This document shows, one piece after another, positions 19,665 to 46,376 of a DNA stretch of 64,000 nucleotides (positions are counted from its first letter, which is position 1; each line of letters begins with the position of its first letter). The stretch comes from a virus (taxonomy: Duplodnaviria > Caudoviricetes), in the IMG/VR virus record IMGVR_UViG_3300036971_000130; one strand, 5' to 3'. A program made the translations under genes and the position numbers. Below the pieces are notes generated by a model that had not been told where the DNA came from, searched no databases, and saw only the letters and a program-made list of their open reading frames with translations.

Positions 19665-20524
19665 TACGACCTCGTCACGCTGTCGATGCCGTCGAAGAAC
19701 ATCTTGGCGAACCAGCGAACAGGTCGGAGAGACGACCTGAAGGCCCGCTCCTTCCACATGTCTCGGCGGTTCTGCTTGGCCTGCTTCTCAGCTTCGATGT
19801 TCCGCTCCCGGAACGCCCGGTCCTGGTCCACTAGCTTCTGCTCGTTCACCTGGTGGCGTTCGAGGTGCCGCTGCATCGCTTCGACAGCGTTCGAGTCGAT
19901 GTAGGGGTCGCCGTAGTCGTCGACGCTCGTGACGATGTACCCGCTCCATCCAGCGGCCCTGGCCTTGTTGTGGAGGTCGATGATGCCGGGGAGGTTCCGG
20001 GCTGGGACCATCTGCGACTTCCGAGGCGAGTCGATCAACTGGTCCGGGTTGTTGTCCTCGATGTGGTGAAGGGACCGGATGATGTAGTCCCGGTTCTCGT
20101 CACCTCGGTCGTAGAAGTCGTCGTCAGCGAGAGGTCGGACCGGGAACCCGTCCTCAGGCTCGACCAGCGGAGCCCTCTGCTCCATGTCGGCCAGCAGTGC
20201 TTCTCTCGCTCGGTCCGCCCGAGCCCAGTCGGGTTCGTTCGGGTAGTCGTCTGCGGTGATGTCGCTGACACCATCCCAGAGGTCTCCTTCTGGTGCGGAG
20301 CGATCCAGCCACTCCCCGAACTCGGGGTCGTCCATGAGGATGTCGTCGTAGTTGTCGTCGTCGTCGTCGGTGAGGTCGCTGGTGAGGTCGAGTTCGGGTC
20401 CTCGACCGAAGTCCGTCCTGTCGAACCGGCCACGGTCTCGGTTCTGGCTGTGGCTGTGATGAGCGTCGCCGTGATGGCGGCTACCATCCTGCGGAGGTCG
20501 GAACGAGGGGGAGAATCCAGGCAT
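19664..20524 (-). CDS. Acidic hypothetical protein with N-terminal tag
   Basis: Leaderless CCAATAGTT-N5-ATG; RDRGRFDRTDFGRGPELDL. Confidence 0.75.
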   Translation of the reverse strand: MPGFSPSFRPPQDGSRHHGDAHHSHSQNRDRGRFDRTDFGRGPELDLTSDLTDDDDDNYDDILMDDPEFGEWLDRSAPEGDLWDGVSDITADDYPNEPDWARADRAREALLADMEQRAPLVEPEDGFPVRPLADDDFYDRGDENRDYIIRSLHHIEDNNPDQLIDSPRKSQMVPARNLPGIIDLHNKARAAGWSGYIVTSVDDYGDPYIDSNAVEAMQRHLERHQVNEQKLVDQDRAFRERNIEAEKQAKQNRRDMWKERAFRSSLRPVRWFAKMFFDGIDSVTRS

Positions 20525-20529
20525 ACTCC

Positions 20530-20538
20530 AACTATTGG
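20530..20538 (-). promoter_or_regulatory. CCAATAGTT leaderless promoter motif (copy 1)
   Basis: Identical at 33619-33627 and 46368-46376, always 5 nt before an ATG. Confidence 0.7.
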
Positions 20539-20607
20539 CGGCTGGCTGGTCAACCCGCCACCCATGATGATCTGGAAGTACTCACCCGAATAGGACATTC
20601 CACCCAA

Positions 20608-21078
20608 ATGCTCAACCGCATGAAAACCGAGACACACGAAGAAATCTCCCGTCGATGGTTCCCCGAGGGAACGTTCGTTCGGTCGGATGGTGGCGTCTTC
20701 TTCAGCCCTGTCGTCGGTGGCCGTTGGGAGGTCCACCTGAATGATGGGACCTACATCCTCTACGACAGCGTGGGACGCTTCTCGACAGCCCCGTGCCCCA
20801 TCTCAGGCATCTACCCGATCGTCTCGAAGCTCGAAGCTCGGATGGTCCACTGCTCCGGTCTGAACCTCGAAGACTACGACCTCGCTGTCCTGCCGTCGGG
20901 GGTTATCGACCTCAACATCGAGATGGTGAACGGCAACGTCGATCTCCTGGCGATGGTCTCGAAGCATGACAGGTCGGTCGAGACCATCGGTCTGTTCGGT
21001 ACCTACCAGGGGGCGGTCTCACTCGCCAGCCTCGTCGGCTACAGTCGAGACGACTGGGAAGGCGTCCTCGTATCGTGA
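20608..21078 (+). CDS. Hypothetical protein
   Basis: GC3-biased ORF downstream of ACCCATGAT (20560-20568). Confidence 0.65.
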   Translation: MLNRMKTETHEEISRRWFPEGTFVRSDGGVFFSPVVGGRWEVHLNDGTYILYDSVGRFSTAPCPISGIYPIVSKLEARMVHCSGLNLEDYDLAVLPSGVIDLNIEMVNGNVDLLAMVSKHDRSVETIGLFGTYQGAVSLASLVGYSRDDWEGVLVS

Positions 21079-21371
21079 GCGACAACGAAGTGGAAGTCGA
21101 AGCGAGCCAAGCCGATCTCGAAACGATGCTGGTGCAGAACCGGCCGTTGAGGATCGAGGCGATCGACAGATCAACCATGTTCGTTGTCGGCTCCGAGCCG
21201 AACTCGTCCCACTGCTACCGAGAGGTCGACGGCCAGGTTGTCTGGTCCGCCAACATCAGCGGACGAGATCACAGCAGGCAGTTGGCTGCGTTGTTCGACG
21301 TGTTCACGTCCCGGCCTGTCGTGTTCTGGTCCTTCGACCCGTCGAGGACTTTTTCCTTCGGACGACCCTGA
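21075..21371 (+). CDS. Hypothetical protein
   Basis: GTGA overlap with the upstream gene. Confidence 0.6.
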   Translation: MSDNEVEVEASQADLETMLVQNRPLRIEAIDRSTMFVVGSEPNSSHCYREVDGQVVWSANISGRDHSRQLAALFDVFTSRPVVFWSFDPSRTFSFGRP

Positions 21372-21384
21372 TCCTCCACGTCGT

Positions 21385-21406
21385 TGTCAGCCCCCTCCGG
21401 TAAGGT
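21385..21406 (+). promoter_or_regulatory. PafBC/RecA-NDp-like promoter
   Basis: TGTCAG-ccccctccgg-TAAGGT. Confidence 0.6.
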
Positions 21407-21440
21407 GGCGGCAACAACTACGGATGAGGGGATCATCACC

Positions 21441-21572
21441 ATGAGAGAGCGTTGCTCTGTCTTTTTCAACACCAAGATCATGTACGAGTACCACCCGGTG
21501 ATCGTGCGCCAACGTCGTCGGGCCCGTCTGGCTGCGGCGGCGATGATCGCTTCCAAGTCAACGAGCGTGTAG
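21441..21572 (+). CDS. Small basic protein (43 aa)
   Basis: GAGGGG RBS before ATG, directly below the TGTCAG promoter. Confidence 0.4.
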   Translation: MRERCSVFFNTKIMYEYHPVIVRQRRRARLAAAAMIASKSTSV

Positions 21573-21583
21573 TATGGGTGGGT

Positions 21584-21886
21584 ATGTCCGATCACCCCAT
21601 CACACGGACCGTCTACCGACACACCGTCGACCACCTCTCAGGTGATCGTTCGGCCAAAGGCCGATGCCTCGAAGTGCTCCGGTTCTTCGGTCATGGGGAA
21701 GCCACGTTCGAGGCCATCTGCGCCGCCGTCCTCCAAGCACGGAACGCTGCTGTCGATGCCAGCCCGCTCTACGAGGGGCCTTCGACGCTCATGCTCTCGA
21801 TCTCACGTTTCGAGCGTGAGACGATGAAGCAGCAGATGTCCGTCGATGCCGTCTGCTCGTTCCTGACTCGACTCGCACCAGCCTGA
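21584..21886 (+). CDS. Hypothetical protein (MSDHPITR..)
   Basis: 3' part of ORF 21452..21886 with plausible codon bias. Confidence 0.55.
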   Translation: MSDHPITRTVYRHTVDHLSGDRSAKGRCLEVLRFFGHGEATFEAICAAVLQARNAAVDASPLYEGPSTLMLSISRFERETMKQQMSVDAVCSFLTRLAPA

Positions 21887-21925
21887 CCTCTACCGATCCG
21901 TCAGTCGACGGGCTACGCTGAGGAC

Positions 21926-22123
21926 ATGCCAGCCACACCACAGCAACACAAGGTCAGGCAGGATCGTCCCCTCGGCGTCATGTTCCGTGCCTGCACAAGA
22001 TGCAAGGAAGTGAAGCGGACGAGGACCGACTTCAGATGGATGCCCGGCCGGGTCAGGTTCCACCCGTGGTGCCTGCGGTGTGAAGCAGACCGTCGGAAGT
22101 TCAGGTCACACCGGAAGCAGTAG
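21926..22123 (+). CDS. Small zinc-finger protein
   Basis: CTRCKEVK..F..CLRC; GAGGA RBS. Confidence 0.6.
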   Translation: MPATPQQHKVRQDRPLGVMFRACTRCKEVKRTRTDFRWMPGRVRFHPWCLRCEADRRKFRSHRKQ

Positions 22124-22354
22124 CTTCGGTTCGTCGCCAGGCCAGTAGATGTCTTCGCAAGGCCACGGGCGAGGCTCGTTGCCGTCGAAGGACACCCATG
22201 CCTTCGGGAACCCACCCTTCATCGTGACCGCCGTCGAATCGCCAGAGCGATGCTTCTGCGGCACCTCAGCGACGACAGCAAGGTGGTGGACACCTGAAGC
22301 GTCCACCACCACGATCACGTCATCGACAGATAGCCGTCCCCAGCCGAAGCGCAT
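22106..22354 (-). CDS. Small hypothetical protein
   Basis: Starts just after the stop of 22358..22876. Confidence 0.5.
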   Translation of the reverse strand: MRFGWGRLSVDDVIVVVDASGVHHLAVVAEVPQKHRSGDSTAVTMKGGFPKAWVSFDGNEPRPWPCEDIYWPGDEPKLLLPV

Positions 22355-22357
22355 CGG

Positions 22358-22876
22358 TCAGTGGTCAAGCCAATCGGGAACCATCTCACTCGGCCCCCAA
22401 CCGATGAAGGAAGGCTCGTTCTGAACGTCCCACCATTCGAGAGCGTCGTACGGGGTGAAGACCCGGTCCGGCTCACCGACCTTGGATGGGAACGGAACCG
22501 GGTACGCCCGCATCCGACGCTTGTCTTCTTCGGTGAGAATGTCCTCGTGACGAAGCATCATCTCGCATCGAGCAAGCATCCGGGCTTCCTCGGAGATGAT
22601 GTTGTCCGGACCACCGAGGCGTGCGGTGACCACGTCGATCACGTCGTCGGGAACATCGACCGTGGTCCAGAACCCGACGTATTCCTCCACCGACCGGAAG
22701 TGGGGAGGGTAGACGAAACTCCCCTTCTCGACCGGCATCCGGAGGTTGTCCATCGGCTCGTGGTAGTTGGCGGTGAACTGACCGCCCTGGGGTGTTCCTG
22801 CCGCCAGACGGGCACGTCGAGCGCCAGGGGTCGTCGCCTCCCGGACGAACCGGGCAAACTTCTGTCCAAAGTTCAC
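22358..22876 (-). CDS. Hypothetical protein with N-terminal GGQF tag
   Basis: RLAAGTPQGGQFTANYHEPMDNL; GTGA coupling to the upstream gene. Confidence 0.7.
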   Translation of the reverse strand: MNFGQKFARFVREATTPGARRARLAAGTPQGGQFTANYHEPMDNLRMPVEKGSFVYPPHFRSVEEYVGFWTTVDVPDDVIDVVTARLGGPDNIISEEARMLARCEMMLRHEDILTEEDKRRMRAYPVPFPSKVGEPDRVFTPYDALEWWDVQNEPSFIGWGPSEMVPDWLDH

Positions 22877-24702: not shown

Positions 24703-24703
24703 G

Positions 24704-31803: not shown

Positions 31804-32247
31804 TCAGGATGCCCGGACGAGCATCTCCATCTCCCGAACTTCGGGATCGCTGAGAATCCTCTCCCGCTGCTCATTGGAGAGCGGGAAGCGGAGAAGATGA
31901 CGAAGAACGATCGGGGACGAATCGCCAGCGAGCAGGTCGTTGATCTTCGGATCGCCACGATCGGCAAGCTCGAAACGGACCATCGGAGACGGGTCGTCGA
32001 CAAGGCGACGGGCCTGCTCGTCCGACAGGACGGGGTTCGTTGCAGCGGTCGCCCGAACGTGCTCGCTCGGGTGGTTGACGAACTCGTCGAGCGACTGGCT
32101 GTCGTTGCAGTTGAACGCAGCCTCGATCGCCTCGTCGTCGAGGGCGACCGGGTCACGGCTGATCTTCGGGTCGCCGCCGGTCCCGTACTGGGAAGGACCG
32201 AACGTGCCGTTGCCGAAGCGGATCTGGCTGGTGTTGTCGTTGCTCAT
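31804..32247 (-). CDS. LRV/HEAT-like repeat protein with N-terminal tag
   Basis: Start MSNDNT; repeats HPSEHVRATAATNP, DDPSPMVRFELA, DSSPIVLRHL. Confidence 0.7.
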   Translation of the reverse strand: MSNDNTSQIRFGNGTFGPSQYGTGGDPKISRDPVALDDEAIEAAFNCNDSQSLDEFVNHPSEHVRATAATNPVLSDEQARRLVDDPSPMVRFELADRGDPKINDLLAGDSSPIVLRHLLRFPLSNEQRERILSDPEVREMEMLVRAS

Positions 32248-32257: not shown

Positions 32258-33613
32258 TCACGCCGAGACCTTCGTCCGGGTTCGAGGGGCGGTTGCAGCG
32301 AGGATCGCCGCATCCCAGGTTTCGTCCTCACGTCCGGGAACGAACATGATGGTCTGCATGATCTTGCGCTGGTCCTCGTAGGTCCCAGCGTCACTGAACG
32401 GGGCGAACAGCGCCCGGACCGTCCGGTCGCTTGCCGTCTCGTCGCTCCACTGACGCCACGCCTCCGCTACTCCACCGACATCAGCGATTGCCTTGCGGTG
32501 AGCGGTTGCACTGGTCGTCGAGAACTGCTCGTCACCGGACTTGACCTGGCTTGCGCCGGTCTCACGACGGAGGATCGACCAGAGTTGACGCTTGATCATG
32601 CTCTTGTCGCCACCAGCGAGAGCCTCGGCAGCGCCATGGTCGAAGGTGCTGAAGGTCGTTCCGGCCTCCATCGGAGAACTGGAACCGGTGAAGCTCGGGG
32701 CGGCGATGTCGATGCCGGGGCTGTCCTCGTCACCGCCAGCGTCGAGGGACAGCGTCCCACGCTTGATCTGCTGGATCGAGTGGAAGCCGATCGTCGGACG
32801 GCGGGTTGCAGCGAAGCCCATCCGGATCTCATCCGCGATCTCGTCACGGCGGGCTGCCGAGACAGGACCACGACGGCCTTCTTCTTCGACTCGCTCGGAC
32901 CACATGCGGTAGGCGTTGCGGTTCACCGACTGATCGGTGCCCGTGATGGCCTGACGAGCGACGTTGTCGACGATCGTGTTGATGTTCGGAGCGGCAGAGG
33001 TGAGGATGCCTCCCGGAGCGATGACACCTTCGTCATCGACCAGGCGGCTCTCGCCGTCCACCATCCGGCGACCGTTGGCTCCACGGACACGCTCGACGAA
33101 GCGAGACTGGGTGTTGCGCCAGGTCGTCAGGAACTCGCTGGTGGCAGCGTTCACGAGGTCTTCGTGGCTGTCGAAGTGCTGTGCGAGGGAGTCACGGGAC
33201 CGCTTGAAGTTGAGACCTGCACGGAGGTTCAGCGTCTTCAGGACGACCGCCTCGTCGTAGGAGCCGACGCCGTAGGCATCGAGGATCTCCTGGTCGGTAG
33301 CGGTCTCCGGGTCGATCGTGGCGAGTTCGTTCGAGCGGTCGGGAACGAACTTCTCGCCCTTGGCTTCAGCGGCACGCCGAGCACGGCGCTCACGCATTCG
33401 GGCGAGACGATCCTCAGGGATGACGACTTCCTCGAACACGGGAGCAGGAACAGGAGGGTTGTCCTCCTGCCACTCGGAGATGTCCGCTCGGATGTTGCGC
33501 TCGAACATGGCGTCGATGTCGACCAGGTCAGTGGTAGCACCGAACCCACGATCGCGAACGGAGAACTCTCCGACAACGTTCCGAGGGTGGCGTGCTTCAT
33601 CCCAGGTCTTCAT
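32258..33613 (-). CDS. Hypothetical protein with WDEARHPR..GEF tag, possible sigma-like core
   Basis: Leaderless CCAATAGTT-N5-ATG at MKTWDEARHPR; HEDLVNAA..F and TLSLDAGGDEDS resemble sigma regions 2 and 3. Confidence 0.7.
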   Translation of the reverse strand: MKTWDEARHPRNVVGEFSVRDRGFGATTDLVDIDAMFERNIRADISEWQEDNPPVPAPVFEEVVIPEDRLARMRERRARRAAEAKGEKFVPDRSNELATIDPETATDQEILDAYGVGSYDEAVVLKTLNLRAGLNFKRSRDSLAQHFDSHEDLVNAATSEFLTTWRNTQSRFVERVRGANGRRMVDGESRLVDDEGVIAPGGILTSAAPNINTIVDNVARQAITGTDQSVNRNAYRMWSERVEEEGRRGPVSAARRDEIADEIRMGFAATRRPTIGFHSIQQIKRGTLSLDAGGDEDSPGIDIAAPSFTGSSSPMEAGTTFSTFDHGAAEALAGGDKSMIKRQLWSILRRETGASQVKSGDEQFSTTSATAHRKAIADVGGVAEAWRQWSDETASDRTVRALFAPFSDAGTYEDQRKIMQTIMFVPGREDETWDAAILAATAPRTRTKVSA

Positions 33614-33618: not shown

Positions 33619-33627
33619 AACTATTGG
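33619..33627 (-). promoter_or_regulatory. CCAATAGTT leaderless promoter motif (copy 2)
   Basis: Exact 9-mer 5 nt before ATG. Confidence 0.7.
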
Positions 33628-33646
33628 TGGCGAAAGCGGGCATCTG

Positions 33647-36600
33647 TCAACTCCTGCGAAGGGTGGCGGCGAAGTTCAGTGCAGCCGCTCCGGGAACTTC
33701 GTCAGCCCGGACGATCCAGGTCCGACGATGAATGTCAGAACGGGTGCTCTCCCGCATGATCGGGACTCCGTCATAGACCAGAGCTTTCGTCTCCGACATC
33801 ATCGACTCGTCGTTCAGGCGGTCGAAGCGACTGCCGGTCAGATGGTCGATGTTGTCGAGCGGAGTCTCGATCTCCGGTCTCGTACGACAGAGTACATTGC
33901 GAGCGCCGTCGAGCCAGTCATCGGTACCCGTAACCGAAGCTTCCACGATGATCTCGTCCACCTGGCCGGGCGACCACGGGAACTCGTAAACGGCTTCGGA
34001 CATCTCGATGAACTCCGACACCGTCCAGCGTCCGACCATGCCGGACCTGTCCGGCGGACGCACCGTGCCGGTGAGGGAAGGGGCTTCCATCGTGGCGACA
34101 GATCCACCGTCATCGGGCTTCGTCCCACCACCTCCGACCTCGAAGTTCGAGACGATCTGATCGAAGATCGCATCCACGTCCTCGGTCTCTGGTCCAAGTG
34201 CGATCGGTTCGTCTTCAGGTGCCGGAACCGGGTCGTCTTCCGGCTCTGGTTCCTGAGGTTCTGTGGGTTCAGTCGGCGCAGACGGAGGACCGTCGAAAAT
34301 CGACATCTGACCCATCCGTGGATCGTCGTCAGGACGATCGAAGATGAACTCGGGAACCTCGAAGCTGTCACGGAACGACGTGTCCTTCAGAGACAGGACT
34401 TCGAGATCGTCGAGGGTCAGTTCCGGACGTTCGTCTGCCGGTTCGACGTGCTCGACACCACTGCTGTCGTCATCATCGAGAGCGTCAGGCGGAGGTGGAG
34501 CCTGACGGACCTTACGGAGACCTCGGACGATCACGACATCACCGACGCTCGGGATGTTGCCCTGAGCGGTGAGGCGATCCATCGTACGGCTCCATGCCAC
34601 GCCACGGATGTAGGTGCTCGAACCTTCCAGGATGTAGGACGCACGGCGACCCCAGTGTCCGGACTTCTCAGCCCACGAAGCGAGGACGCCAACGGTGACG
34701 ACGGTCTGCTTCGTGGTCTCGGCCACGACCCGAGAGATCGGTTGAGGCTTGATCCCTGACAGACCGACGGACTTCAGTTCGTCGGTGTGGTGCGTCAGCG
34801 GCGAAGCCGACAGGAGAACACCCAACAGCTTCCGCTCACGACGGGCCTGCTCCACGTAGGACCAGGACATCAGCGGAACGTCGTCCTCGGCGTAGGCGAC
34901 GATGCCTGCGGTCGCCAGCAGGAACATCAGCGACTTCCGGGCAGGCGTACCATCGGGGAGCTTCGGAGCGAACTCGTCCATTGCCCCTGACTCGATGAGC
35001 TTCGGGATCTCGCCTCGGCCGACTCGCATCTCCGGCGGGAGGCCGGGGTCGAAGCACCGTGAGCAGAGATCATCGAAGGACGTGAACAACCCTCCACGGT
35101 CACGTTCAGCTACGAGACGATGCATCTCGGAAGCGTTGGCACCTTTGATCTCCGAGAGGCCGAACGAGACCTCGTTGCTGGCGTTGACCGAGGTCTTCAC
35201 CAGGCTTCCGTTCACCGACGGGAGCACGACGGCGACACCTTCCTCACGCATGGCGGTGAGCATCGACAGTCGGCGTTCGTTGTCCTTCGTCGACATGAGC
35301 AGACCAGCGGCGTACGCCTCCGGCCAGTTCGCCTTCAGGTAGGCGGTCATGTACGAGAGAGTTCCGTACGAGAACGAGTGGGCCTTGTTGAACGAGTATT
35401 CACCGGCCGACTTCATCGTGTCCCAGAGCCGCTCGGCGGTCTCGTAGTGGAACGCTGGCTTCACGAGGTTGCCATCCTCGTCCCGGATCTCCTGCTGGGC
35501 ACCTTCGACGAACTGGGTGCCGACCTTCGCAAGTTCGTCGGCGTTCTTCTTCGAGACCGCCTTCCGAAGCTTGTTCGTGCCGACCGGGTCGAAGCCTCCG
35601 ACCTTGGCGGCAATCGACATCATCTGCTCCTGGTACACGCAGTTGTGGACCACGACGCCGTTGGCGATGAAGTTGTGGATGCCCGCAACCGTGATGTCGT
35701 AGACCCTCTCGATGCCTCCGGTTGCGATCTCGGGGACCTCGATCCACCGGATGCCGCCGGGTTCGGATGCCGAATCGAGGAACGAGATCAGGAATGCGTT
35801 CTCGTTGTTCGGCATCGGCCTCACCTGGCTCTGGATGCCGAGACGCAGAGCGAGGAACTGGATCTGCTCGACGATCGTGGGCGACACCGTGAACAGTGGC
35901 CTCCCACTGGCGATGATCTGGCTGACCAACGCTCGAACGATCTCGTCGTCCGCCGACATGAACTCCTGGGGGATCGCCTCGTCGACGAACCACGAGTCTT
36001 CGGCCAGCGTGACACCGATGCCCCTGGCGTTCACGATCGAAACCAGATTGTCTCGCTGGTGCTCGACATCAGGGTTGAGGTACCGGCTCGGTTCGGCAAC
36101 GAGGTCACCGGAGACGAGATCGCCTGCTGCGATCCACCCTCGGTTCGTCAGAACCTTGTGGTCCGGCGTGGCTCGCAACGTCTGACCGTTCGAGAAGGAG
36201 AGCTTCATCACTTGGCGATCGCCGTTGTCCATGAAGTGCGTGATCTGCCCGGATGCCAGGTTGTTGTCCTCGTCGACGCCCTGAACCACCTCACCGACTT
36301 CAGCCTCGTCGATGTTGATGAGGTGGCCTCTCGTCACCGAGTAGATGCGAGTGTCCCCGGTCACGCAGACGCCGTAGGTGTCAGCGAAGACCGACTCGAT
36401 GATCTCGTTCTCGACCTCGGCGTTCTGTGAGGTGCGGGTGTACATGCCGTAGTCGACAGCCTCACGGCCGTGCTTGCGCTCCACGTACCTCGTGTGCATG
36501 TTGGCACCGAGTGGGCCAGGTCGGTACAGGGCGAGTAGAGCGGAGAGGTCGTTGAGGCTCGTCGGGCGCATGTCTACGGTGAGAGCCGTCATGCCCTGGG

Positions 36601-38653
36601 ACTCCAACTGGAAGACGCCGGAGGTCTTGCCTTCACCGAGCAGCTTCCATGTCTTGCGGATTCGCTGACGATCGACTTCGGTCAGGTTCGGGTCGTCGAG
36701 ATCGGTCGGGAGGAAGTCCGGGTCGATGTCTTCGCCGGTGGTCTCCTTGATGACGTTCACGCAGGATGCGACCACGTCGAGGTTCCGGAGGCTGAGGGCG
36801 TCGATCTTCATGTAGTCGGCGGCGCTGATGTCGACAGCGTCGTTCTGAAGAACCGGGACATCCGAGGTCGCCGTGTAGCGCCGGGGAAGGTCGCCTTCCA
36901 TGCTCACATCGGAGACGACGATGCCGCAGGCGTGGATGCCCTCCTTGTCGATGAGATCCTCGAACTCCAACGCCAATGACACGACCGCCTGGTAGGCGAC
37001 GTTCTTGTCCTTGCGGGACAGGAAGTCCGAGGCGAGGGTCTTGATCTTCTCGCTGGCGCTCTCGTCGGTCGCCATGTGGAGGGGGAGCGGCTTGCCGCCT
37101 GGGAGCATCGGGATCGAACGGGAGAGTTCGTCTCCGATATCGGTCTCATCGAGGACCGACGCTGCGGCCTTCAGAGCGCCCTTGGACTTCAGCGTTCCGA
37201 GGTTGCCGATTCGAGCGACCCGGTCGTAGCCCCATCGCTGAGCGAGGTAGACGAACACCTCGTTGCGTCGGCCGGTCTCGAAGTCGATGTCGATGTCGGG
37301 CATCTCCATGCGGTCGATAGAGAGGAACCTTTCGAACAGGAGGCCGTTCGAGATCGGCTCGACGTTGACGATGCCGAGGCAGTAGGAGATCGCACATCCG
37401 GCAGCGGAGCCTCGTCCGGGGCCGACTCGGATGCCGACCGAACGTGCCCACTCGATCATGTCCTGCACGATCAGGAAGTAGTCACCGAGGCCCTTCGTGT
37501 CGATGATCCCGAACTCGAAGCTGATCCGGTCCTGGACGACCTTGTCGATCTTGCCGCTGGCACCGTAGCGCCACCAAGCTCCGGCGATGATCTGGTCCCA
37601 CAGGTAGGCCGAGGAACCTTCGAGGCCCTTCGCCTTCGCCATGGCGGACGGAGTCCAGTCTGCTGGCGGGTCGAACTTCGGCAGACGGATGCGCTTCTCA
37701 CGGACCCCGATGACATCGTCGTCAGTGACCATCTCAGCGATCTTCAGGGAGTTCACGACGGCGAGTTCTGTGCCGGGCTGGTTGTTGAACAGCGCCCGCA
37801 TCTCGGCCGGGGTGCGGAGGTGGTAGCCCTCACCCTGGAACTTGAACCGACGATCGTCGCTGATCTGCGACTTCGTCGAGTGGCAGAGCCACGCTTCGTG
37901 ACCGTCGGCGTTCTCGGCTTCGACGTAGTGGGCGTCGTTGGTGGCGACGACTTCGAGCCCGAACTTCTTGGCGAGTTCGACGAGCCCGCCGATGACCTTC
38001 TTCTCGGCAGCGATGCTGTGGTCCATGACTTCGACGAAGACCCGGTCCCGTCCGAAGGCCCCGACCAACTGGGCGAGGTTCCTCTCGGCGGTCTTCATGT
38101 CGCCCTGCAAGATCGGACCGGCGACCGGACCACCGAGGCAGCCGGTGAGGCAGATCAGCCCGTCTTGGAGGGAGCACAGGAGGTCGAGGTCGATCCTGGG
38201 CTTGTACCAGGTTGCCGCTTCCCGGTTCGCTGCATTGTTCAGCCGGACGAGGTTCTCCCATCCGGTGCGGTTGTAGGCGAACACGGTGATGTGCTGGTAC
38301 CGCTTGTGCTTGGTCTTGCCGGTCGCATCGCCGGAGGCCGACGAGTCGAGGTCGATGTCGTTGATGCCGACGATGATCGAGTCACGGTCGAACCGGCTGC
38401 CGATCGACAGGTAGAACTCGCAGCCGATGATCGGCTTCACGCCCTTGTCGAGACATGCCTCGATGAACTTCCGGCAGCCGGAGAGTGTCCCGTGGTCGGA
38501 GATCCCCACAGCGGGCGAGTCGTCCCCGTCGGCCAGACCGTTGCGGAAGGCTGCTCCGGCGAGGGCTTTGATCCGGGCGGCTCCGTCGAGAACGCTGTGG
38601 GAGGTGTGGTTGTGCAGTGAGACCCATCCAGGTCGGAGGATCTCAACGGTCAT
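33647..38653 (-). CDS. dnaE: DNA polymerase III alpha subunit with intein
   Basis: PHP HNHTSHS.LDG, SDHG, GCEFY, TNDAHY; GPGRGSAAG, PDIDIDF, GIHACG, GVFQLES, LYRPGP, YQEQ, YSFNKAH; OB fold; acidic Pro-rich tail. Confidence 0.97.
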   Translation of the reverse strand: MTVEILRPGWVSLHNHTSHSVLDGAARIKALAGAAFRNGLADGDDSPAVGISDHGTLSGCRKFIEACLDKGVKPIIGCEFYLSIGSRFDRDSIIVGINDIDLDSSASGDATGKTKHKRYQHITVFAYNRTGWENLVRLNNAANREAATWYKPRIDLDLLCSLQDGLICLTGCLGGPVAGPILQGDMKTAERNLAQLVGAFGRDRVFVEVMDHSIAAEKKVIGGLVELAKKFGLEVVATNDAHYVEAENADGHEAWLCHSTKSQISDDRRFKFQGEGYHLRTPAEMRALFNNQPGTELAVVNSLKIAEMVTDDDVIGVREKRIRLPKFDPPADWTPSAMAKAKGLEGSSAYLWDQIIAGAWWRYGASGKIDKVVQDRISFEFGIIDTKGLGDYFLIVQDMIEWARSVGIRVGPGRGSAAGCAISYCLGIVNVEPISNGLLFERFLSIDRMEMPDIDIDFETGRRNEVFVYLAQRWGYDRVARIGNLGTLKSKGALKAAASVLDETDIGDELSRSIPMLPGGKPLPLHMATDESASEKIKTLASDFLSRKDKNVAYQAVVSLALEFEDLIDKEGIHACGIVVSDVSMEGDLPRRYTATSDVPVLQNDAVDISAADYMKIDALSLRNLDVVASCVNVIKETTGEDIDPDFLPTDLDDPNLTEVDRQRIRKTWKLLGEGKTSGVFQLESQGMTALTVDMRPTSLNDLSALLALYRPGPLGANMHTRYVERKHGREAVDYGMYTRTSQNAEVENEIIESVFADTYGVCVTGDTRIYSVTRGHLINIDEAEVGEVVQGVDEDNNLASGQITHFMDNGDRQVMKLSFSNGQTLRATPDHKVLTNRGWIAAGDLVSGDLVAEPSRYLNPDVEHQRDNLVSIVNARGIGVTLAEDSWFVDEAIPQEFMSADDEIVRALVSQIIASGRPLFTVSPTIVEQIQFLALRLGIQSQVRPMPNNENAFLISFLDSASEPGGIRWIEVPEIATGGIERVYDITVAGIHNFIANGVVVHNCVYQEQMMSIAAKVGGFDPVGTNKLRKAVSKKNADELAKVGTQFVEGAQQEIRDEDGNLVKPAFHYETAERLWDTMKSAGEYSFNKAHSFSYGTLSYMTAYLKANWPEAYAAGLLMSTKDNERRLSMLTAMREEGVAVVLPSVNGSLVKTSVNASNEVSFGLSEIKGANASEMHRLVAERDRGGLFTSFDDLCSRCFDPGLPPEMRVGRGEIPKLIESGAMDEFAPKLPDGTPARKSLMFLLATAGIVAYAEDDVPLMSWSYVEQARRERKLLGVLLSASPLTHHTDELKSVGLSGIKPQPISRVVAETTKQTVVTVGVLASWAEKSGHWGRRASYILEGSSTYIRGVAWSRTMDRLTAQGNIPSVGDVVIVRGLRKVRQAPPPPDALDDDDSSGVEHVEPADERPELTLDDLEVLSLKDTSFRDSFEVPEFIFDRPDDDPRMGQMSIFDGPPSAPTEPTEPQEPEPEDDPVPAPEDEPIALGPETEDVDAIFDQIVSNFEVGGGGTKPDDGGSVATMEAPSLTGTVRPPDRSGMVGRWTVSEFIEMSEAVYEFPWSPGQVDEIIVEASVTGTDDWLDGARNVLCRTRPEIETPLDNIDHLTGSRFDRLNDESMMSETKALVYDGVPIMRESTRSDIHRRTWIVRADEVPGAAALNFAATLRRS
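35642..36367 (-). mobile_element. Intein (242 aa) in DnaE with degenerate endonuclease remnant
   Basis: TYGV|CVTGDT..ATPDHKV..VYDITV..HNFIANGVVVHN|CVYQEQ. Confidence 0.93.
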
Positions 38654-38836
38654 GCTGGTTCGTGACCTTCATCGGTGCGGCTTTCGGGTTTGCGCTTCCC
38701 GAGCGGAGTGACCGCCGGGGTGCTCCGCTGTCATGGGGCGGAGGGGCAACGGGTTGGACTGTACACGATCGGGTCTCGAAGGCAAGCCGTCGATCTGAAA
38801 ATCGTAGAGACATAGAGGGAGAGAGGGGTAGGGGGG

Positions 38837-39023
38837 TAAATTATAGACATATGTATGGGTTTTCTTGTACACCTACTACTACCTACCCCTCTACCTACTC
38901 CATACAACCTACGTTCTCCCAGGTCAGAGTGGAGATCGCTGTTCTTCGCCGGATTCCAAGAATCGCCTGTTCAGACCGCAGATCCGGCACTTATCCACAG
39001 ACTTGTCCACAACCTTATCCACA
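38837..39023. other. oriC-like replication origin
   Basis: AT-rich tract 38837-38870; CTAC repeats 38873-38912; DnaA boxes TTATCCACA 38991, TTGTCCACA 39003, TTATCCACA 39015; intergenic, next to dnaE. Confidence 0.7.
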
Positions 39024-39079
39024 GAAGACAGAGAGCGAACGAGTTGGACCAGACCGAAAACCCCACCCATATTGTGACC

Positions 39080-40541
39080 ATGCAGCCCGCTTTCGAGTTC
39101 GGAGACCCCATCGAGAGAGGACCCCAGAGCCGCTACTGGTGGGTCCGTCGATGCCCGGACTGCGACGAGGTGATCGCCACCGAGGAAGAACTTCCTGGCA
39201 TCTCGGGTGCGAAGGATGCGATCGGGGGCTCTCGGAGGCGTCTCCGAAGGGGCGTTTCGAGCGCATCGAGGTAAAACACGAAGATGGGGGTTGCGTCCAC
39301 CCTGGATGCATGTGTATCGTCCCAAGCCCATGACGGCCGACGCTCTCGCACAGATCAGGGACATCCTCCCCGAAGCTCTGCGACCTGGCGCGTCCAGCCT
39401 CGAAGCGGTCGAAGCGATGAAGCAGTTCCTCGTTCCCGATCTCGTCGAGCAGATCGACGCCATCCTGTCTGCTGTCTACCACCAGGAAAGTGACCCTGAC
39501 CTGGTGATTCGCCTGATCGACGATGAGCCATTCATCTACGATTGGGAGGGCATCGAGCCCGACTTCACCGACGATCCCATTGACCCCGTTGACGTACCCG
39601 ATTGGGCCGACGAAACCGATGAGATCGGACCGGAGAACGAGTCAGATCCCGCCGTCGCACAGATCGACGACACGGAACAGCCTTCCGCCCACGGGGCAGT
39701 TGAGCCGTCCCACAACCACGCTGACCTGGTGGAATCCGGGTCTGACGAGGTAGCACCGGTTCCCGAACCGCAAGTTCAAGCAGCGCACGCCGACCTTCGG
39801 ACCTCTACAGACGATGTCCCTGGCGAGGGTGGTCAGGACTTGGATGAGCGGAGCACCCTTGACTCCCCCAGTAGACCAACAGGGGCGACGAACACCAGCA
39901 CCGAGGAACCGGACTACTTTGGCAGGCCAGAGGACTTCACGCCGGGCGTCAAGCCTGTGTTCGTGGTACCCGAGTTGTTGAGCGCCGAGTGGGATGACCC
40001 GCTGAACCGGCCACCGGAAACACCTCCTGACCAGGTTGTTCTTGCTGAACCTGTGATCGTCGAGGATGAGCCTCCCTCTGTGGATGACACGACCGAGGCA
40101 GTCCCGAAGCAACCGTCGCAACGACGGACGCAGGAGACGAACCACTGGGACCAATACGAGAACCCGGACTACGAGTTGACCGACGGTGACATGGCAGACG
40201 CTCTGGCGGACGCCGAACGGATGTTCGATGAGATGATGCGTTCCGAGCCGGAAGCTCGTCCTCCGCCGACACCTGAACCACCCCAACCTGAACCAACACC
40301 GCTGAAGCCGCCTGTGGCTACTTCAGCGACCGATCCGAGGGACAGTCTCATGGTCGATTCCGAGTCCGATCTTGGGCACATCCACATGCTCGTGGAGGTG
40401 CAACGAGGCAAGCGGTTCGCCAAGTGCGGCCACGAGCGCATGGACAAGGCGAAGACCAGCTACGCCGACGAGTTCACGGTGTGGCACAACGATGTGTCGT
40501 GCCCCACCTGCATCGAGGTGATGACGGCCCCCGCCGCCTGA
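39080..40541 (+). CDS. Acidic Pro-rich hypothetical protein with Cys motifs, probable frameshift at G5 39224-39228
   Basis: ACCCATATT-N6-ATG at 39080; CPDC; removing one G joins ORF 39207..40541; C-terminal H..CG..CPTC. Confidence 0.55.
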
Positions 40542-43450: not shown

Positions 43451-43496
43451 AGACCGGCCGTAGCCGGTGGTGATTGGAGACCGGCCGTAGCCGGTG
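43451..43496 (-). repeat. 19-bp direct repeat, each copy a C(UACG)G hairpin in the ssb leader
   Basis: AGACCGGCCGTAGCCGGTG at 43451 and 43478. Confidence 0.85.
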
Positions 43497-43529
43497 ATAA
43501 GGAGCCGGAATCGCTGGCTTCTTGACTAC

Positions 43530-43551
43530 ATTCTCTACAAGGGGGCTGACA
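43530..43551 (-). promoter_or_regulatory. PafBC/RecA-NDp-like promoter of ssb
   Basis: TGTCAG-cccccttgta-GAGAAT. Confidence 0.55.
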
Positions 43552-43589
43552 GTCTGTGGTGATTTACGAGGAATCTCCGAAAGATTTTC

Positions 43590-44300
43590 TCAGAACCAGT
43601 TGCCGCCGAAGGCACCGACATCGAACAGCCGCCAGGTCACGAAGCCGATGGCGAGCAGCAGGAGCGGGGAGACGATCGAGTTCTCGACGAACCCGCCGGA
43701 CTTGAACAGGCCAGCGGAGAACTTCGTCTTCGTGAACGGGGCCAGCCAGGAGATACCTGCGGGCGTCGGTGTGTCACCCAGCAGGTGCGTGAAGTAGGGG
43801 ACGGGGATCGCTGCGTAGAGCCACCAGTCGGGCTGGAACCCCTTGGTGGCGGCGAGCCAGGCGACGAAGATGCCGACAGGGATGGCGATGGCAGCAGCCA
43901 CCTTCTCGTACTTCTCGGGGAGGATCGCTGCGGTACAGAACGGCCATCCGAGGGCGATCGTGAGGCCGAGGGTGGCACCGAGTTCCCAGCCGGGACCGAA
44001 GACGTTGATGAGCGCCCACACCCAGGCGGTCAGGAGCGGAATGATGACGAGCGGCCAGTGGGTGCGGGTCCGGTGAGCGCCGGTGAAGATCCGCATGAAG
44101 GAACCGAGCGGTCCAGCGACCTGCGACGCCTTCGAGTGCTTCTCGTCGATGTCCGCTGCGAGAGCGGCACCTGCGGCCACGACCGCCCCGGCAACGATCA
44201 CCGATGGCAGCGGGAGGTTCAGGTCCCAACGGGAGTGAGCGAGGACGAGAGCGCCACCGTAGGCAGCGACACCGGACATGGCGTGGTTGAGGCCGTTCAT
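43590..44300 (-). CDS. YdjM-like membrane metal-dependent hydrolase
   Basis: MNGLNH, ADID, HRTRTH, THLLGD..T..G; multiple TMs; CATGAT-N7-ATG start. Confidence 0.85.
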   Translation of the reverse strand: MNGLNHAMSGVAAYGGALVLAHSRWDLNLPLPSVIVAGAVVAAGAALAADIDEKHSKASQVAGPLGSFMRIFTGAHRTRTHWPLVIIPLLTAWVWALINVFGPGWELGATLGLTIALGWPFCTAAILPEKYEKVAAAIAIPVGIFVAWLAATKGFQPDWWLYAAIPVPYFTHLLGDTPTPAGISWLAPFTKTKFSAGLFKSGGFVENSIVSPLLLLAIGFVTWRLFDVGAFGGNWF

Positions 44301-44353
44301 GGTCACCATCATGGGTCGGGAAGCGGACGAAATCGTACCCCATCGTGTGACAT

Positions 44354-44806
44354 GTGTGTACACTCCCCTTCGTGGAAAAATGGGATGTCAGATACCGAGC
44401 CCTGATCGAGTACGTGGAGCGTGAGGGCCTGATCCCGTCCGCCCGCCGAGATCAGCGGATGGGCTCATGGGTGGCCGAGCAGAAGCGACGGCTCCGGAAG
44501 GGGATCATGCCCACCGAGCAGCGTGAGCTTCTCGAAGCCATCGACGGTTGGTACTGGGACAACGAGGATCTCCATGCCAGGGCTGGGTACAGTTCGCTCT
44601 GGAAGCGCAACTACGACAACCTGCTCACCTACATGGCCGAGAACAGCCGGTACCCTTCGCAGTTGAATGCGGATCGCTCGATCAGCAAGCTCGGCTCCTG
44701 GGTGTCCAGGCAGCGTCAGACGTACCGTGGGGACAAGAAGTCACGCCCCCTCACGGCTCGACAGATCGAGATGCTCGAACGCCTCCCCCAGTGGAACTGG
44801 GGTTAG
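44354..44806 (+). CDS. Stand-alone helicase-associated (HA) repeat protein
   Basis: Two W...Y..L..Y......P.....(M/L)GSWV..Q(K/R) units. Confidence 0.8.
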   Translation: MCTLPFVEKWDVRYRALIEYVEREGLIPSARRDQRMGSWVAEQKRRLRKGIMPTEQRELLEAIDGWYWDNEDLHARAGYSSLWKRNYDNLLTYMAENSRYPSQLNADRSISKLGSWVSRQRQTYRGDKKSRPLTARQIEMLERLPQWNWG

Positions 44807-46362
44807 CGCCGGTACCCGAGGATGTTCTCCAAGGCGATCGCACGACCTTCGGCGTTGGCGTCGTAGGTCTGGCTGCTTCGGTCCACGTCGTAGCCAGGCC
44901 GGATCGGGTTGTAGAGCAGGTCGCTCGGTTCCCTCTTGTCAGCGATCGCTTCAGCGGCGCTGACGTACCCGGCGACGTAGGCGGAGAGTTCAGATCCGGT
45001 CTTGTCGGTCGGCGGGATCGTGGTGCCTGCGAGAGCAGGGTGCGTCGAATGGGTCTCGGCCTTCCACCTGTCCGGGTGGTTGGTGGCGAGCGCCACGGGG
45101 CCAGAGGGTCGGGTGTACGGCTTGTTGGCTGTCCGGGCCTGGTGTGATCCGGCGATCGCCCTCGTCATCTGATCGACCGCTTCGACCGTCTTGCGTCGAG
45201 GGTTGTACGGGGACAGTGTCCTGACCGAAGCCGAGATCCTCTTGTTCGTGTCGAGCAGGACATCGAAAGCTTCGTCGTAGCTGCTCGTGGCGAGAGCCGG
45301 GTCCCTGATGATCTCGTCAGCGAAGCCGCCGAATCCCGCTCCCCACTTCCGGATGGTCCTGTGGGGGATGCCGGTCTCGCCGTGGATGTGGGCGACATCC
45401 TCGGGGCTGAGAGGGGTGCCGAGGTAGTAGCTCCCGTCCGAGAACGAACGCCCCTCCACGATGGTCGACCCGTACACGCCTTCGGGGGCGTGGTCAGCGA
45501 ACAGGACGGCGATGGCCGTTCGACGACTCAGGTACACGGTGAGGTTGGGGTCCGACTCGGTCTCGAAGGTCTCGGAGGAAACGAGGCCACGGAGACCAGC
45601 GTCCGAGATGAGAGGTGGCACGGTGTCGAAGTGGTCTTCCAGGAGAGCGATGCGCTGGTTCCGACCGACGAGGTGTACCCTTTCCAGAATGCTGCCAGGC
45701 ATCGGCGTTCCCGTGCCTTCCCTGCTGATCGCTCTGACGAGATCCGATGCGACATCGTCGTTCGGTGAGATGCCGTACTCCCTGGCCTGGTCAGCGAGAC
45801 GGGGGTTCGCCCCGAGTTCCTTCCAGCGAAGCGCCTCACCCAGTGGGTACCCGGAGTCGGTCCACTTCCGTTCCTCGGTGACCGGAATCCCGGCCATGAG
45901 CCATTCGAGGGACCGGTCGCATTCGGACGTGATGAGTTCGCTGTCACGCCACCCGTCGGGGAACACCGCTTCCTCGTAGGAGATGAGCAGGTCGTCCTCC
46001 CCCATCAGGCCATCCTCGGTCGAGTAGCCAGACCAGACGACCTGACCGTCGGCATCGAGAACGTAGGCCAGGTGGTCCGCTCCGTCGGGAACGTGATCGC
46101 CGTAGTCGAATGGCCTCGTCGAGATCGTGAGGGACGAGACCCAAACCGCTTCCTCCGGGTCGAAGTGGGACGGCGAGACCAGGTCGTAGACGTTGGCCTC
46201 GGTGTCGGAGTCGAAGACCGCCCCATCGAGTTCGTTCAGCCGCTCATCACGGATGGTCGAAACAGACGAGAGGTCGATGTCCGCCCCGAAGTTGTGGACG
46301 AAGCTGGTCCACCTGCCGAGACGATCACGGGGGCCGGAGCCAGGGGGCATTGTTGAGGTCAT
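44803..46362 (-). CDS. Hypothetical protein with N-terminal tag
   Basis: Leaderless CCAATAGTT-N5-ATG; PRDRLGRWTSFVHNFGADIDL. Confidence 0.75.
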   Translation of the reverse strand: MTSTMPPGSGPRDRLGRWTSFVHNFGADIDLSSVSTIRDERLNELDGAVFDSDTEANVYDLVSPSHFDPEEAVWVSSLTISTRPFDYGDHVPDGADHLAYVLDADGQVVWSGYSTEDGLMGEDDLLISYEEAVFPDGWRDSELITSECDRSLEWLMAGIPVTEERKWTDSGYPLGEALRWKELGANPRLADQAREYGISPNDDVASDLVRAISREGTGTPMPGSILERVHLVGRNQRIALLEDHFDTVPPLISDAGLRGLVSSETFETESDPNLTVYLSRRTAIAVLFADHAPEGVYGSTIVEGRSFSDGSYYLGTPLSPEDVAHIHGETGIPHRTIRKWGAGFGGFADEIIRDPALATSSYDEAFDVLLDTNKRISASVRTLSPYNPRRKTVEAVDQMTRAIAGSHQARTANKPYTRPSGPVALATNHPDRWKAETHSTHPALAGTTIPPTDKTGSELSAYVAGYVSAAEAIADKREPSDLLYNPIRPGYDVDRSSQTYDANAEGRAIALENILGYRR

Positions 46363-46367
46363 GCTCT

Positions 46368-46376
46368 AACTATTGG
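46368..46376 (-). promoter_or_regulatory. CCAATAGTT leaderless promoter motif (copy 3)
   Basis: Exact 9-mer 5 nt before ATG; overlaps the upstream stop codon. Confidence 0.65.

What the first reader, a model, noticed from the sequence alone, without database searches (positions are those of the whole stretch)
20522..46376. Dedicated leaderless promoter CCAATAGTT-N5-ATG heads the tagged-protein units
The AT-rich 9-mer CCAATAGTT occurs at 20530-38, 33619-27 and 46368-76 (minus strand), each exactly 5 nt before an ATG. That places AATAGT where the -10 of a leaderless mRNA would be. All three genes carry the N-terminal tag, and two are followed directly by a second tagged gene (19664, 32247), so 5 of 6 tagged proteins share this promoter. 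A DNA motif and a peptide motif picking out the same genes independently argues for a real co-regulated module, possibly read by the element's own sigma-like factor (inference).
Basis: partly seen in the sequence, partly recalled or inferred. Interest (0 to 1): 0.85.

Follow-up and report, generated by a model that had tools for sequence, protein, structure and literature searches.

The report
Special promoter heading tagged-protein genes
On a giant conjugative plasmid-like element of an uncultured actinobacterium, one short DNA word sits exactly where a promoter must be for transcription to begin at the start codon. It is found only in front of genes whose proteins carry a shared N-terminal peptide tag, so these proteins probably form a separately controlled gene set, which nobody seems to have described.

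Summary
CCAATAGTT occurs 3 times in the window (0.04 expected), each followed by 5 bases and ATG. In 43 kb of flanking sequence from the same element I found 3 more exact copies. All 6 are followed after 5 bases by ATG or GTG, and all 6 head genes for tagged proteins. Ten of the 11 tagged proteins in 107 kb lie in units headed by this word.

The box puts AATAGT at -12..-7 of a leaderless mRNA. It is preceded by GCC-N-CC and, 17 bases upstream, by a TTGACA-like hexamer (0 of 5000 random sets match as well). It is a distinct sub-class of the element's general leaderless box ACC-CATGAT-N6-ATG, which heads 9 untagged genes at the same spacing (Fisher p about 2e-4).

One tagged, box-headed gene (32258-33613) encodes a divergent sigma-like protein.

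Caveats:
- There is no transcript data.
- A one-mismatch copy precedes an untagged ribonucleotide reductase gene.
- One tagged gene lacks the box.

Earlier notes of this scan report similar promoter-plus-tag modules on other actinobacterial megaplasmids. I found a weaker form of the link on Paenarthrobacter plasmid pYJN5-1.

The parts
20530..20538 (-). Class B box CCAATAGTT, site 1. AATAGT lies at -12..-7 of the ATG at 20524. It is preceded by GCCG.
33619..33627 (-). Class B box, site 2, in the 33-nt gap between the dnaE stop and the ATG at 33613. It is preceded by GCCA.
46368..46376 (-). Class B box, site 3, before the ATG at 46362. It is preceded by CCCG. Its TAG is also the stop of a small upstream ORF.
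33645..33650 (-). -35-like hexamer TTGACA (6/6), 17 nt before the box of site 2. It overlaps the dnaE stop codon.
20556..20561 (-). Position of the -35-like hexamer for site 1 (GTGGCG, 3/6).
46394..46399 (-). Position of the -35-like hexamer for site 3 (CACGCA, 3/6).
19664..20524 (-). Tagged protein of 286 aa (tag ..NRDRGRF..ELDL), first gene of unit 1, predicted leaderless. No family hit.
18783..19664 (-). Second tagged gene of unit 1. Its GTG overlaps the upstream TAG by 1 nt. Tag ..GNDGQF..DVDL.
32258..33613 (-). Tagged, divergent sigma-like protein of 451 aa, first gene of unit 2, predicted leaderless. A sigma region-2-like domain lies at about residues 111-225. The tag region is disordered in the model.
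31804..32247 (-). Second tagged gene of unit 2, a protein with LRV/HEAT-like repeats. The same gene pair is kept on pYJN5-1 and pACHL01.
44803..46362 (-). Tagged protein of 519 aa (tag ..PRDRLGRW..DIDL), unit 3, predicted leaderless. It has no homologue outside this element.
22358..22876 (-). The sixth tagged protein (tag ..PQGGQF..H.EP). It is not box-headed. Its GTG overlaps the stop of the upstream gene, inside a long operon.
2..1213 (+). C-terminal part of a tagged 653-aa protein. Its class B box and ATG lie just outside the window, at -762 and -748.
46554..47396 (-). It is sigma-70-like only by ESM Atlas neighbours. No sequence-family hit.
2083..2099 (-). Comparison: class A box CCCATGAT-N6-ATG before an untagged gene. 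Others lie at 3362-3378(-), 3403-3419(+) and before the ATG at 5777(+).

Best explanation
CCAATAGTT is the core of a dedicated promoter class (class B) of a roughly 233-kb conjugative megaplasmid-like element of an uncultured actinobacterium.

**Anatomy.** The full signal is a TTGACA-like hexamer, 17 nt, then GCC-N-CC-AATAGT-T. AATAGT occupies -12..-7, with A at -11 and T at -7, so RNA polymerase would start at the purine 6 nt after the box. In 5 of 6 copies that purine is the A of the ATG, which gives a leaderless mRNA. In the sixth it is a GTG that opens an 8-codon mini-ORF ending 1 nt before the real ATG.

**Relation to the general code.** The class is a discrete variant of the element's general leaderless box ACC-CATGAT-N6-ATG. 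It differs at -12, -9/-8, -6 and -17..-15, and it has a -35-like part that class A lacks.

**What it controls.** It is used for transcription units that encode proteins with the N-terminal R..G-x-F..(D/N)-L tag. Downstream tagged genes in the same units are translated by coupling.

**Inferred steps.** The two classes are read differently, by a different sigma-like factor or by the same one with a helper. The tagged proteins would then be made as one co-regulated set near the conjugation and replication genes. Two sigma-like proteins are encoded next to class B boxes, and one of them is itself a tagged member of the set.

Shown: the sequence architecture, the spacing, the statistics and the exclusive link to the tag. 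Inferred: the transcription start, the reading factor and the co-regulation.
For: 1. Three copies in the window against 0.04 expected. Six in 107 kb, all co-oriented with a gene and all with RTG after N5.
2. All 6 head tagged genes, and 10 of 11 tagged proteins lie in these units. None of 9 class A-headed genes is tagged. Fisher p is about 2e-4 for 6/0 against 0/9; one search gave 1.2e-4 for 6/0 against 0/10.
3. Class A and class B share C-14, C-13, A-11, T-10 and T-7 at identical spacing to the ATG, as a -10 element for leaderless mRNA would.
4. No usable Shine-Dalgarno sequence stands before the five ATGs, whereas internal genes have GGAGG-type sites.
5. A -35-like hexamer at one fixed offset scores a mean of 4.0/6 matches to TTGACA. 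The maximum over 5000 random sets was 3.29. Class A has none.
6. At the site at -9067 the box is 33 nt from the tagged gene's ATG, which has its own Shine-Dalgarno sequence. The box therefore works at a distance from the ribosome site.
7. The box is 100% conserved, while the adjoining tag-coding DNA has diverged.
8. No shared RNA or DNA hairpin is present.
9. Relatives use fixed-distance boxes in the same way. pYJN5-1 has 91 CCGYACACA-N8-RTG sites against 0 for the reversed control. The closest orthologue of the sigma-like gene has CCGCC-CATAGG in the same register.
10. [quoted passage not shown]
Against: - There is no transcript or start-site data, so the start at the ATG is inferred from geometry only.
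- The base at -12 is A, not the T of the actinobacterial TANNNT consensus.
- The gap between the -35-like hexamer and AATAGT is 19 nt, longer than the usual 17±1.
- Only 6 copies were seen in 107 kb of a roughly 233-kb element. The rest was not available to me.
- A 1-mismatch copy (CCGATAGTT, with the same flanks and the same -35 offset) precedes an untagged class II RNR gene with a 47-nt leader. The class is therefore not strictly reserved for tagged genes.
- One class A variant (CC-CATAGT-G, at -22562) differs from class B at only 2 positions of the 9-mer and heads an untagged lipoprotein. The discrimination may rest on very few bases.
- On pYJN5-1 tagged genes mostly use that plasmid's general box, with only a statistical sub-class bias.
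Confidence: 0.65

Rival explanations
1. It is the same promoter system as class A with no separate regulation. CCAATAGTT is only a sequence variant that travels with a promoter-plus-tag front end, copied from gene to gene by duplication or recombination. The link between DNA word and peptide tag would then reflect common descent, not co-regulation.
For: - Class B and class A share spacing and 5 fixed positions.
- A class A variant differs from class B at only 2 positions of the 9-mer.
- Pairs of class B sites share the N5 spacer (CAGGT twice, TTCT- three times), and sites 1 and 3 show residual similarity in the first codons.
- Three tagged genes in one operon are clear paralogues.
- Earlier scan notes describe the same domains with and without such a front end on other plasmids (unchecked).
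Against: - The 9-13 nt box is perfectly conserved in 6 copies, while the adjoining tag-coding DNA is near random identity. That implies selection on those exact bases, including positions a generic -10 element does not need.
- Class B has a -35-like hexamer that class A lacks.
- A near-copy drives an untagged RNR gene, so the box also exists apart from the tag.
Confidence: 0.2
2. It is a host sigma-A promoter whose conserved flank (GCC-N-CC-AAT) is the binding site of an element-encoded activator or repressor. This would resemble PafBC-type 'sigma adaptation' at leaderless DNA-damage genes of mycobacteria. The word would then be an operator overlapping a weak -10 element rather than a sigma-specific box.
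For: - The TTGACA-like -35 and an A-11/T-7 hexamer could be read by a housekeeping sigma.
- The extra conserved bases upstream of the hexamer are unexplained by -10 recognition alone.
- An activator that adapts sigma-A to unusual promoters is documented in Actinobacteria (PMC8635444, seen only as title and abstract).
Against: - The word is not palindromic and has no second half-site.
- The 19-nt spacer and A at -12 are poor for sigma-A.
- The simple sigma-70 consensus scan finds nothing at these sites.
- No candidate regulator was identified here.
Confidence: 0.1
3. It is an RNA-level signal: a processing site that cuts longer transcripts 5-6 nt before the ATG, or a translation enhancer that is not a Shine-Dalgarno sequence.
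For: Site 2 lies only 33 nt after dnaE, inside what could be one long transcript. The fixed 5-nt distance to the ATG would also fit a cleavage or ribosome signal.
Against: - At -9067 the word lies 33 nt from the ATG, which has its own Shine-Dalgarno sequence.
- A DNA-level -35-like hexamer stands at a fixed distance upstream.
- There is no shared structure.
- The parallel class A word and the 91 boxes of pYJN5-1 sit in divergent intergenic regions where no upstream transcript exists.
Confidence: 0.04

Closest known systems
Leaderless promoters of Actinobacteria (sigma-A type, TANNNT about 6-7 nt before a transcription start that coincides with the start codon; Shell et al. 2015, PMC4633059)
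   Same: - A -10-like hexamer with A-11 and T-7 ends 6 nt before an ATG or GTG.
- There is no Shine-Dalgarno sequence.
- A leaderless mini-ORF coupled to the downstream gene occurs at one site.
   Different: - The base at -12 is A, not T.
- 9-13 bases are invariant instead of 2-3.
- The word is private to one mobile element and, within it, to one functional set of genes.
HrpL regulon of plant-pathogenic Pseudomonas and Erwinia (alternative sigma plus 'hrp box' promoter before effector genes whose products carry N-terminal type III secretion signals; from my own knowledge)
   Same: A DNA motif (the promoter) and a loosely conserved N-terminal peptide signal pick out the same otherwise unrelated genes. 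Those genes sit next to a secretion or transfer apparatus.
   Different: - The machinery here is a Gram-positive-type conjugation system, not type III secretion.
- The mRNAs here are leaderless.
- The reading factor is unidentified.
- Export of the tagged proteins is unproven.
Plasmid- and phage-encoded sigma factors with private promoters, such as SigN (ZpdN) of B. subtilis pBS32, which activates its own expression (PMC6751061), and T4 gp55 with its -10-only late promoter TATAAATA (own knowledge)
   Same: A mobile element encodes its own sigma-like proteins and uses short private promoter words. One sigma-like gene here sits behind the class B box, which would allow self-activation as in SigN.
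   Different: - No experiment links either sigma-like protein to the box.
- Two promoter classes coexist.
- The sigma-like protein carries the N-terminal tag.
Private leaderless boxes of related Micrococcales megaplasmids (pYJN5-1: CCGYACACA-N8-RTG; Curtobacterium pS16 and pCPAA3: CCGC(G)CATA; examined here and in earlier notes of this scan)
   Same: - The backbone is the same: DnaE, SSB, HNH and a tagged sigma-like gene followed by a tagged LRV-repeat gene.
- Dozens of tagged proteins are present.
- Fixed-distance boxes precede the start codons, and a GC-rich CCGC stands at -17..-14.
   Different: - The words differ in sequence.
- On pYJN5-1 tagged genes share the general box and show only a bias: the 10th base is not T in 9 of 18 tagged against 3 of 73 untagged box-headed genes.
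- Here the split into two classes is clean.

Membership tests
Actinobacterial leaderless -10 promoter | Hexamer with A at -11 and T at -7, placed at -12..-7 relative to the first base of the start codon | tested here: met
   AATAGT lies at -12..-7 in all 6 copies.
Actinobacterial leaderless -10 promoter | T at -12 (TANNNT consensus) | tested here: not met
   The base at -12 is A in all 6 copies, G in the RNR variant and C in class A.
Actinobacterial leaderless -10 promoter | ATG or GTG at +1 and no Shine-Dalgarno sequence upstream | tested here: met
   ATG in 5 copies and GTG in 1 stand exactly after N5. The N5 holds no properly spaced Shine-Dalgarno sequence.
Actinobacterial leaderless -10 promoter | Primary transcript 5' end mapped at the start codon | not testable with these tools
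   No RNA data exist for this uncultured element.
Bipartite sigma-70-type promoter | -35 hexamer resembling TTGACA at a fixed distance | tested here: met
   Mean of 4.0/6 matches at one offset in 7 sites, reached by 0 of 5000 random sets.
Bipartite sigma-70-type promoter | Spacer of 17±1 nt between the hexamers | tested here: not met
   The spacer is 19 nt to AATAGT, or 17 nt to the start of the 9-mer. The consensus scan does not call these sites.
Regulon of a dedicated element-encoded sigma (HrpL or SigN type) | Sigma-family protein encoded by the element | tested here: inconclusive
   For 32258-33613:
- Its family profile hits ECF sigma chains first in the PDB (E 0.029).
- Sigma70_r2 matches 8 of 46 members (best E 3.7e-6).
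- The fold of residues 111-225 matches sigma-2 domains at Z 6.3-7.5.
- Foldseek found nothing.

For 46554-47396: only ESM Atlas neighbours, TM 0.40-0.46.
Regulon of a dedicated element-encoded sigma (HrpL or SigN type) | The factor is shown to direct transcription from the motif | not testable with these tools
   This needs in vitro transcription or reporter assays.
Regulon of a dedicated element-encoded sigma (HrpL or SigN type) | The motif precedes the members of one functional set and not other genes | tested here: met
   All 6 exact copies head tagged units, and 0 of 9 class A genes are tagged. A 1-mismatch copy before RNR is the exception.

The most novel reading that the evidence does not exclude
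The class B box and the peptide tag together define a 'travel kit'. This would be a co-regulated set of proteins made in the donor and passed with the DNA through the conjugation channel into the recipient. The set includes a tagged sigma-like factor, a tagged HExxH metallopeptidase-like protein and others. In the recipient the transferred sigma would redirect host RNA polymerase to the element's private leaderless promoters before any plasmid gene has been expressed. This would be the plasmid counterpart of phage N4 injecting its virion RNA polymerase.
Probability: 0.15. Interest if true: 0.9.

Novelty: new variant of a known kind. Interest (0 to 1): 0.7.

Why it matters
If the reading holds, a large conjugative element runs at least two private promoter classes. 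It reserves one of them for proteins that share an address-like peptide, and one of those proteins is a sigma-like factor.

That would give a simple sequence rule (box plus tag) for finding the members of a hidden regulon on many actinobacterial megaplasmids. It would also offer a testable route to two questions: which plasmid proteins act together at transfer or establishment, and how such elements keep their transcription apart from the host's.

Cultured relatives with dozens of tagged genes exist, namely Paenarthrobacter pYJN5-1 and Pseudarthrobacter pACHL01, so the idea can be tested at the bench. I found no paper describing these boxes or the tag.

Tried and rejected
- **Whole genome.** None is held for this window. 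Records behind the metagenome loci cannot be pattern-searched. I therefore extended the sequence by hopping with the look-up of encoding contigs and reached 107 kb of about 233 kb.
- **Close relatives.** There is no nucleotide match in PLSDB. The 519-aa tagged protein has no relative anywhere. JGI contigs that seemed to be variants were the same sequence with different gene calls.
- **Collection-wide pattern scan.** I did not run it. The 14-base minimum would give thousands of chance hits.
- **Canonical sigma-70 scan.** It found nothing above chance and nothing at the sites.
- **Hairpins or single-strand promoter structures at the sites.** No consistent signal.
- **Foldseek of the sigma-like model against the PDB.** No significant hit. 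The sigma-2 likeness came only from the profile search and the VIA-align wide search at middling Z.
- **Homologue of the 989-aa helicase-sigma fusion of pYJN5-1.** Absent from the 107 kb.
- **The 46554-47396 protein.** Nothing from Pfam, NCBIfam, PDB sequences or homologue searches beyond its own 99%-identical copy in the protein collection and one weak plasmid hit.
- **A 12th 'tag' hit at 40027(-).** Rejected. It lies antisense to the real plus-strand gene at 39207-40541.
- **Polyvalent-protein paper (PMC5512222).** It does not mention the tag.

Full report
**1. The observation**

CCAATAGTT occurs three times in the window, all on the minus strand, at 20530-38, 33619-27 and 46368-76. Shuffles predict 0.04 copies. 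Each copy is followed by exactly five bases and ATG.

Aligning the three sites shows a longer conserved block, (G/C)CC-R-CC-AATAGTT. Sequence on either side is poorly conserved, including the first codons.

The three ATGs open frames of 286, 451 and 519 codons with coding-type GC3 and almost no in-frame sequence upstream. The 451-aa form starting at this ATG is also the one on record in the public protein collection.

A GTG at 19664 overlaps the upstream TAG by one base, and an ATG at 32247 lies 10 nt after the upstream stop.

**2. What the element is**

The window (63% GC) carries these genes:
- a DnaE with an intein, SSB, HNH, a ParA-like ATPase, a J-domain protein and a PD-(D/E)XK nuclease;
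- a DUF3854 protein, a TcpC-like protein and a VirB4/AAA_10 ATPase interrupted by a Hint domain;
- a 1324-aa VanY/GDSL wall hydrolase, a 3497-aa surface protein and a MoxR-type ATPase.

The nearest records are 0.4-0.6 Mb plasmids of Paenarthrobacter, Pseudarthrobacter, Arthrobacter and Curtobacterium, at about 38% DnaE identity.

It is therefore a conjugative megaplasmid-like element of an uncultured actinobacterium. The longest contig on record that carries the 451-aa protein is 233.5 kb.

**3. The replicon-wide test**

No genome is held. I collected contigs of the same element from run SRR11827187 and joined them to the window. The composite has 106,964 bases, covers window-equivalent -27075 to 79888, and shows no mismatch in the overlaps.

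It holds six exact copies of the word, the three known ones and three new ones at -9067, -2378 and -762.
- The copies at -2378 and -762 are again followed by N5-ATG. Those ATGs are the starts that the collection's own gene calls list for these contigs, giving 471 and 653 aa.
- Both products begin with the tag (..RRRGNGEF..NLL and ..GNGGMF..LDVL).
- The copy at -9067 is followed after N5 by GTG, which opens an 8-codon mini-ORF. Its TGA ends one base before the ATG of a tagged gene that has its own Shine-Dalgarno sequence.
- That operon holds three tagged paralogues and a weak FtsK-like protein.

A profile of the tag finds 11 tagged proteins in the 107 kb. The profile was built from these same proteins plus seven tagged N-termini of relatives, so it serves mainly to show that there are no others. 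Ten of the 11 lie in units headed by the word. The exception is 22876.

**4. A second box at the same spacing**

While listing upstream regions I found that other genes are preceded by (A)CC-CATGAT-N6-ATG. Nine such genes occur in the composite, and none is tagged.
- Aligned on the start codon, the two classes share C-14, C-13, A-11, T-10 and T-7.
- They differ at -12 (C against A), at -9/-8 (GA against AG), at -6 and at -17..-15.

Two unrelated words at one fixed distance from the start codon, sharing the two bases that matter most for -10 recognition, are what a -10 element of leaderless mRNAs should look like. [quoted passage not shown]

Tag status separates the classes completely: 6/0 against 0/9, Fisher p about 2e-4 (a similar computation is).

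Earlier notes of this scan describe the CATGAT class as element-wide, with about 90 copies in the preceding 97 kb. I confirmed it only in my 107 kb.

**5. New features of class B**

Seventeen bases before the word there is a hexamer that resembles TTGACA:
- TTGACA at site 33627, where it overlaps the dnaE stop;
- CTGACA, ATGACA and TCGACG at other sites;
- weaker matches at the rest.

The mean is 4.0 of 6 matches at one offset. The best of 5000 random sets scored 3.29, and class A has nothing comparable.

The spacer to AATAGT is 19 nt, which is long for sigma-A, and the simple consensus scan does not call these sites. No common hairpin exists.

A one-mismatch copy, CCGATAGTT, has the same flanks and the same -35 offset. 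It lies about 47 nt before an untagged class II ribonucleotide reductase gene just beyond the window's end. The box therefore also works with a leader and is not mechanically tied to the tag.

**6. Who might read it**

*The tagged 451-aa protein (32258-33613).*
- It belongs to a family of about 99 representatives. The family consensus begins R...G.P.GGQFA.....E....L, which is the tag.
- The family profile hits ECF sigma factors first in the PDB, aligned on region 2.
- Pfam Sigma70_r2 matches 8 of 46 members, with a best E-value of 3.7e-6.
- An AlphaFold model (pLDDT 80, tag region disordered) has a domain at residues 111-225. Its best structural neighbours are mostly sigma-2 domains at Z 6.3-7.5. 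Foldseek found nothing.
- I rate 'sigma-like' as moderately supported.

All ten of its ESM Atlas structural neighbours are sigma-70 family proteins, at TM 0.40-0.46. This is a lead only.

Nothing shows which factor reads which class.

**7. Relatives**

The gene pair 'tagged sigma-like, then tagged LRV-repeat protein' is kept on pYJN5-1 and pACHL01.

Upstream of the orthologous sigma-like gene:
- The closest relative has CCGCC-CATAGG in the same register as class B.
- Curtobacterium plasmids have GCCGCATACATA.
- The Arthrobacter-type plasmids have GCCGCACACAC. A JGI contig fits this type if the second ATG is the start.

CCGC at -17..-14 and A at -11 recur in the first three of these lineages.

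pYJN5-1 holds 36 tag matches and 91 CCGYACACA-N8-RTG boxes, against 0 for the reversed control. About 18 tagged genes are box-headed.

By my hand count, the tenth base of the box is not T in 9 of 12 cases that are tagged, against 9 of 79 when it is T (Fisher p = 1e-5). A weaker link between tag and promoter sub-class therefore exists on an independent, cultured plasmid.

Earlier notes of this scan report similar modules on other megaplasmids. I did not check those.

**8. Verdict**

The word is best explained as the core of a dedicated, bipartite promoter sub-class that yields leaderless mRNAs for the tagged-protein units.

Still open:
- the transcription starts;
- the reading factor;
- whether the clean split from class A means separate regulation or only shared ancestry of promoter-plus-tag front ends;
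- the unseen half of the element.

I found no paper describing these boxes or the tag.

Noticed in passing
window 2083-2099(-), 3362-3378(-), 3403-3419(+), 5760-5779(+); leadered copies at 18719-18726(-) and 20561-20568(+): A second leaderless box, (A)CC-CATGAT-N6-ATG, heads untagged genes. One case is a divergent pair that shares a 52-nt intergenic region. Earlier notes call it element-wide.
   Followed up: partly
window 46370-46540(-): A small ORF of 56 codons with a Shine-Dalgarno sequence and GC3 0.78 lies between the sigma-like candidate and the 519-aa tagged gene. Its TAG stop is the TAG inside CCAATAGTT.
   Followed up: no
L009 8821-8865 (window-equivalent -9067 to -9023): At the one class B copy with a leader, the GTG after N5 opens an 8-codon mini-ORF. 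Its TGA ends 1 nt before the ATG of the tagged gene, which looks like leaderless uORF coupling.
   Followed up: partly
window 32247; L009 8863, 10001, 11009: Tagged genes that are not directly box-headed share the junction GAGG-N5-6-TGAG-ATG, that is a TGA one base before the ATG. This suggests termination-reinitiation coupling.
   Followed up: no
just beyond the window end, window-equivalent 64224-64232(+) (L013 about 4495): A one-mismatch copy, CCGATAGTT, has the class B flanks and an ATGACA -35 at the same offset. It lies about 47 nt before an untagged class II ribonucleotide reductase gene.
   Followed up: partly
window 32258-33613(-): The tagged protein downstream of dnaE is a divergent sigma-like protein. 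Its family of about 99 representatives carries the tag as a conserved N-terminus.
   Followed up: yes
window 33647-38653(-) and 59188-62844(+): DnaE carries an intein (Intein_splicing, Hint). The VirB4-like AAA_10 ATPase has a weak Hint_2 match (E 0.0011, below Pfam's cut-off).
   Followed up: no
window 38654-39330: An intergenic stretch of about 680 nt lies between dnaE(-) and an acidic 444-codon plus-strand ORF (39207-40541) with a C-terminal zinc-ribbon-like end. Minus-strand ORFs there are probably spurious.
   Followed up: partly
L009 12093-14870 (window-equivalent about -5795 to -3018): A 925-aa protein with a weak FtsK/SpoIIIE match (E 0.006) sits in the class B-headed operon after three tagged paralogues. 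It may be the coupling protein.
   Followed up: no
pYJN5-1 (NZ_CP053545.1), whole record: The record has 36 tag matches (RQPKGIPxGGQFAATxHxEP) and 91 CCGYACACA-N8-RTG boxes. Boxes whose tenth base is not T are strongly enriched before tagged genes. A second box type, GCGCATAG, heads only untagged genes in the first 50 kb.
   Followed up: partly
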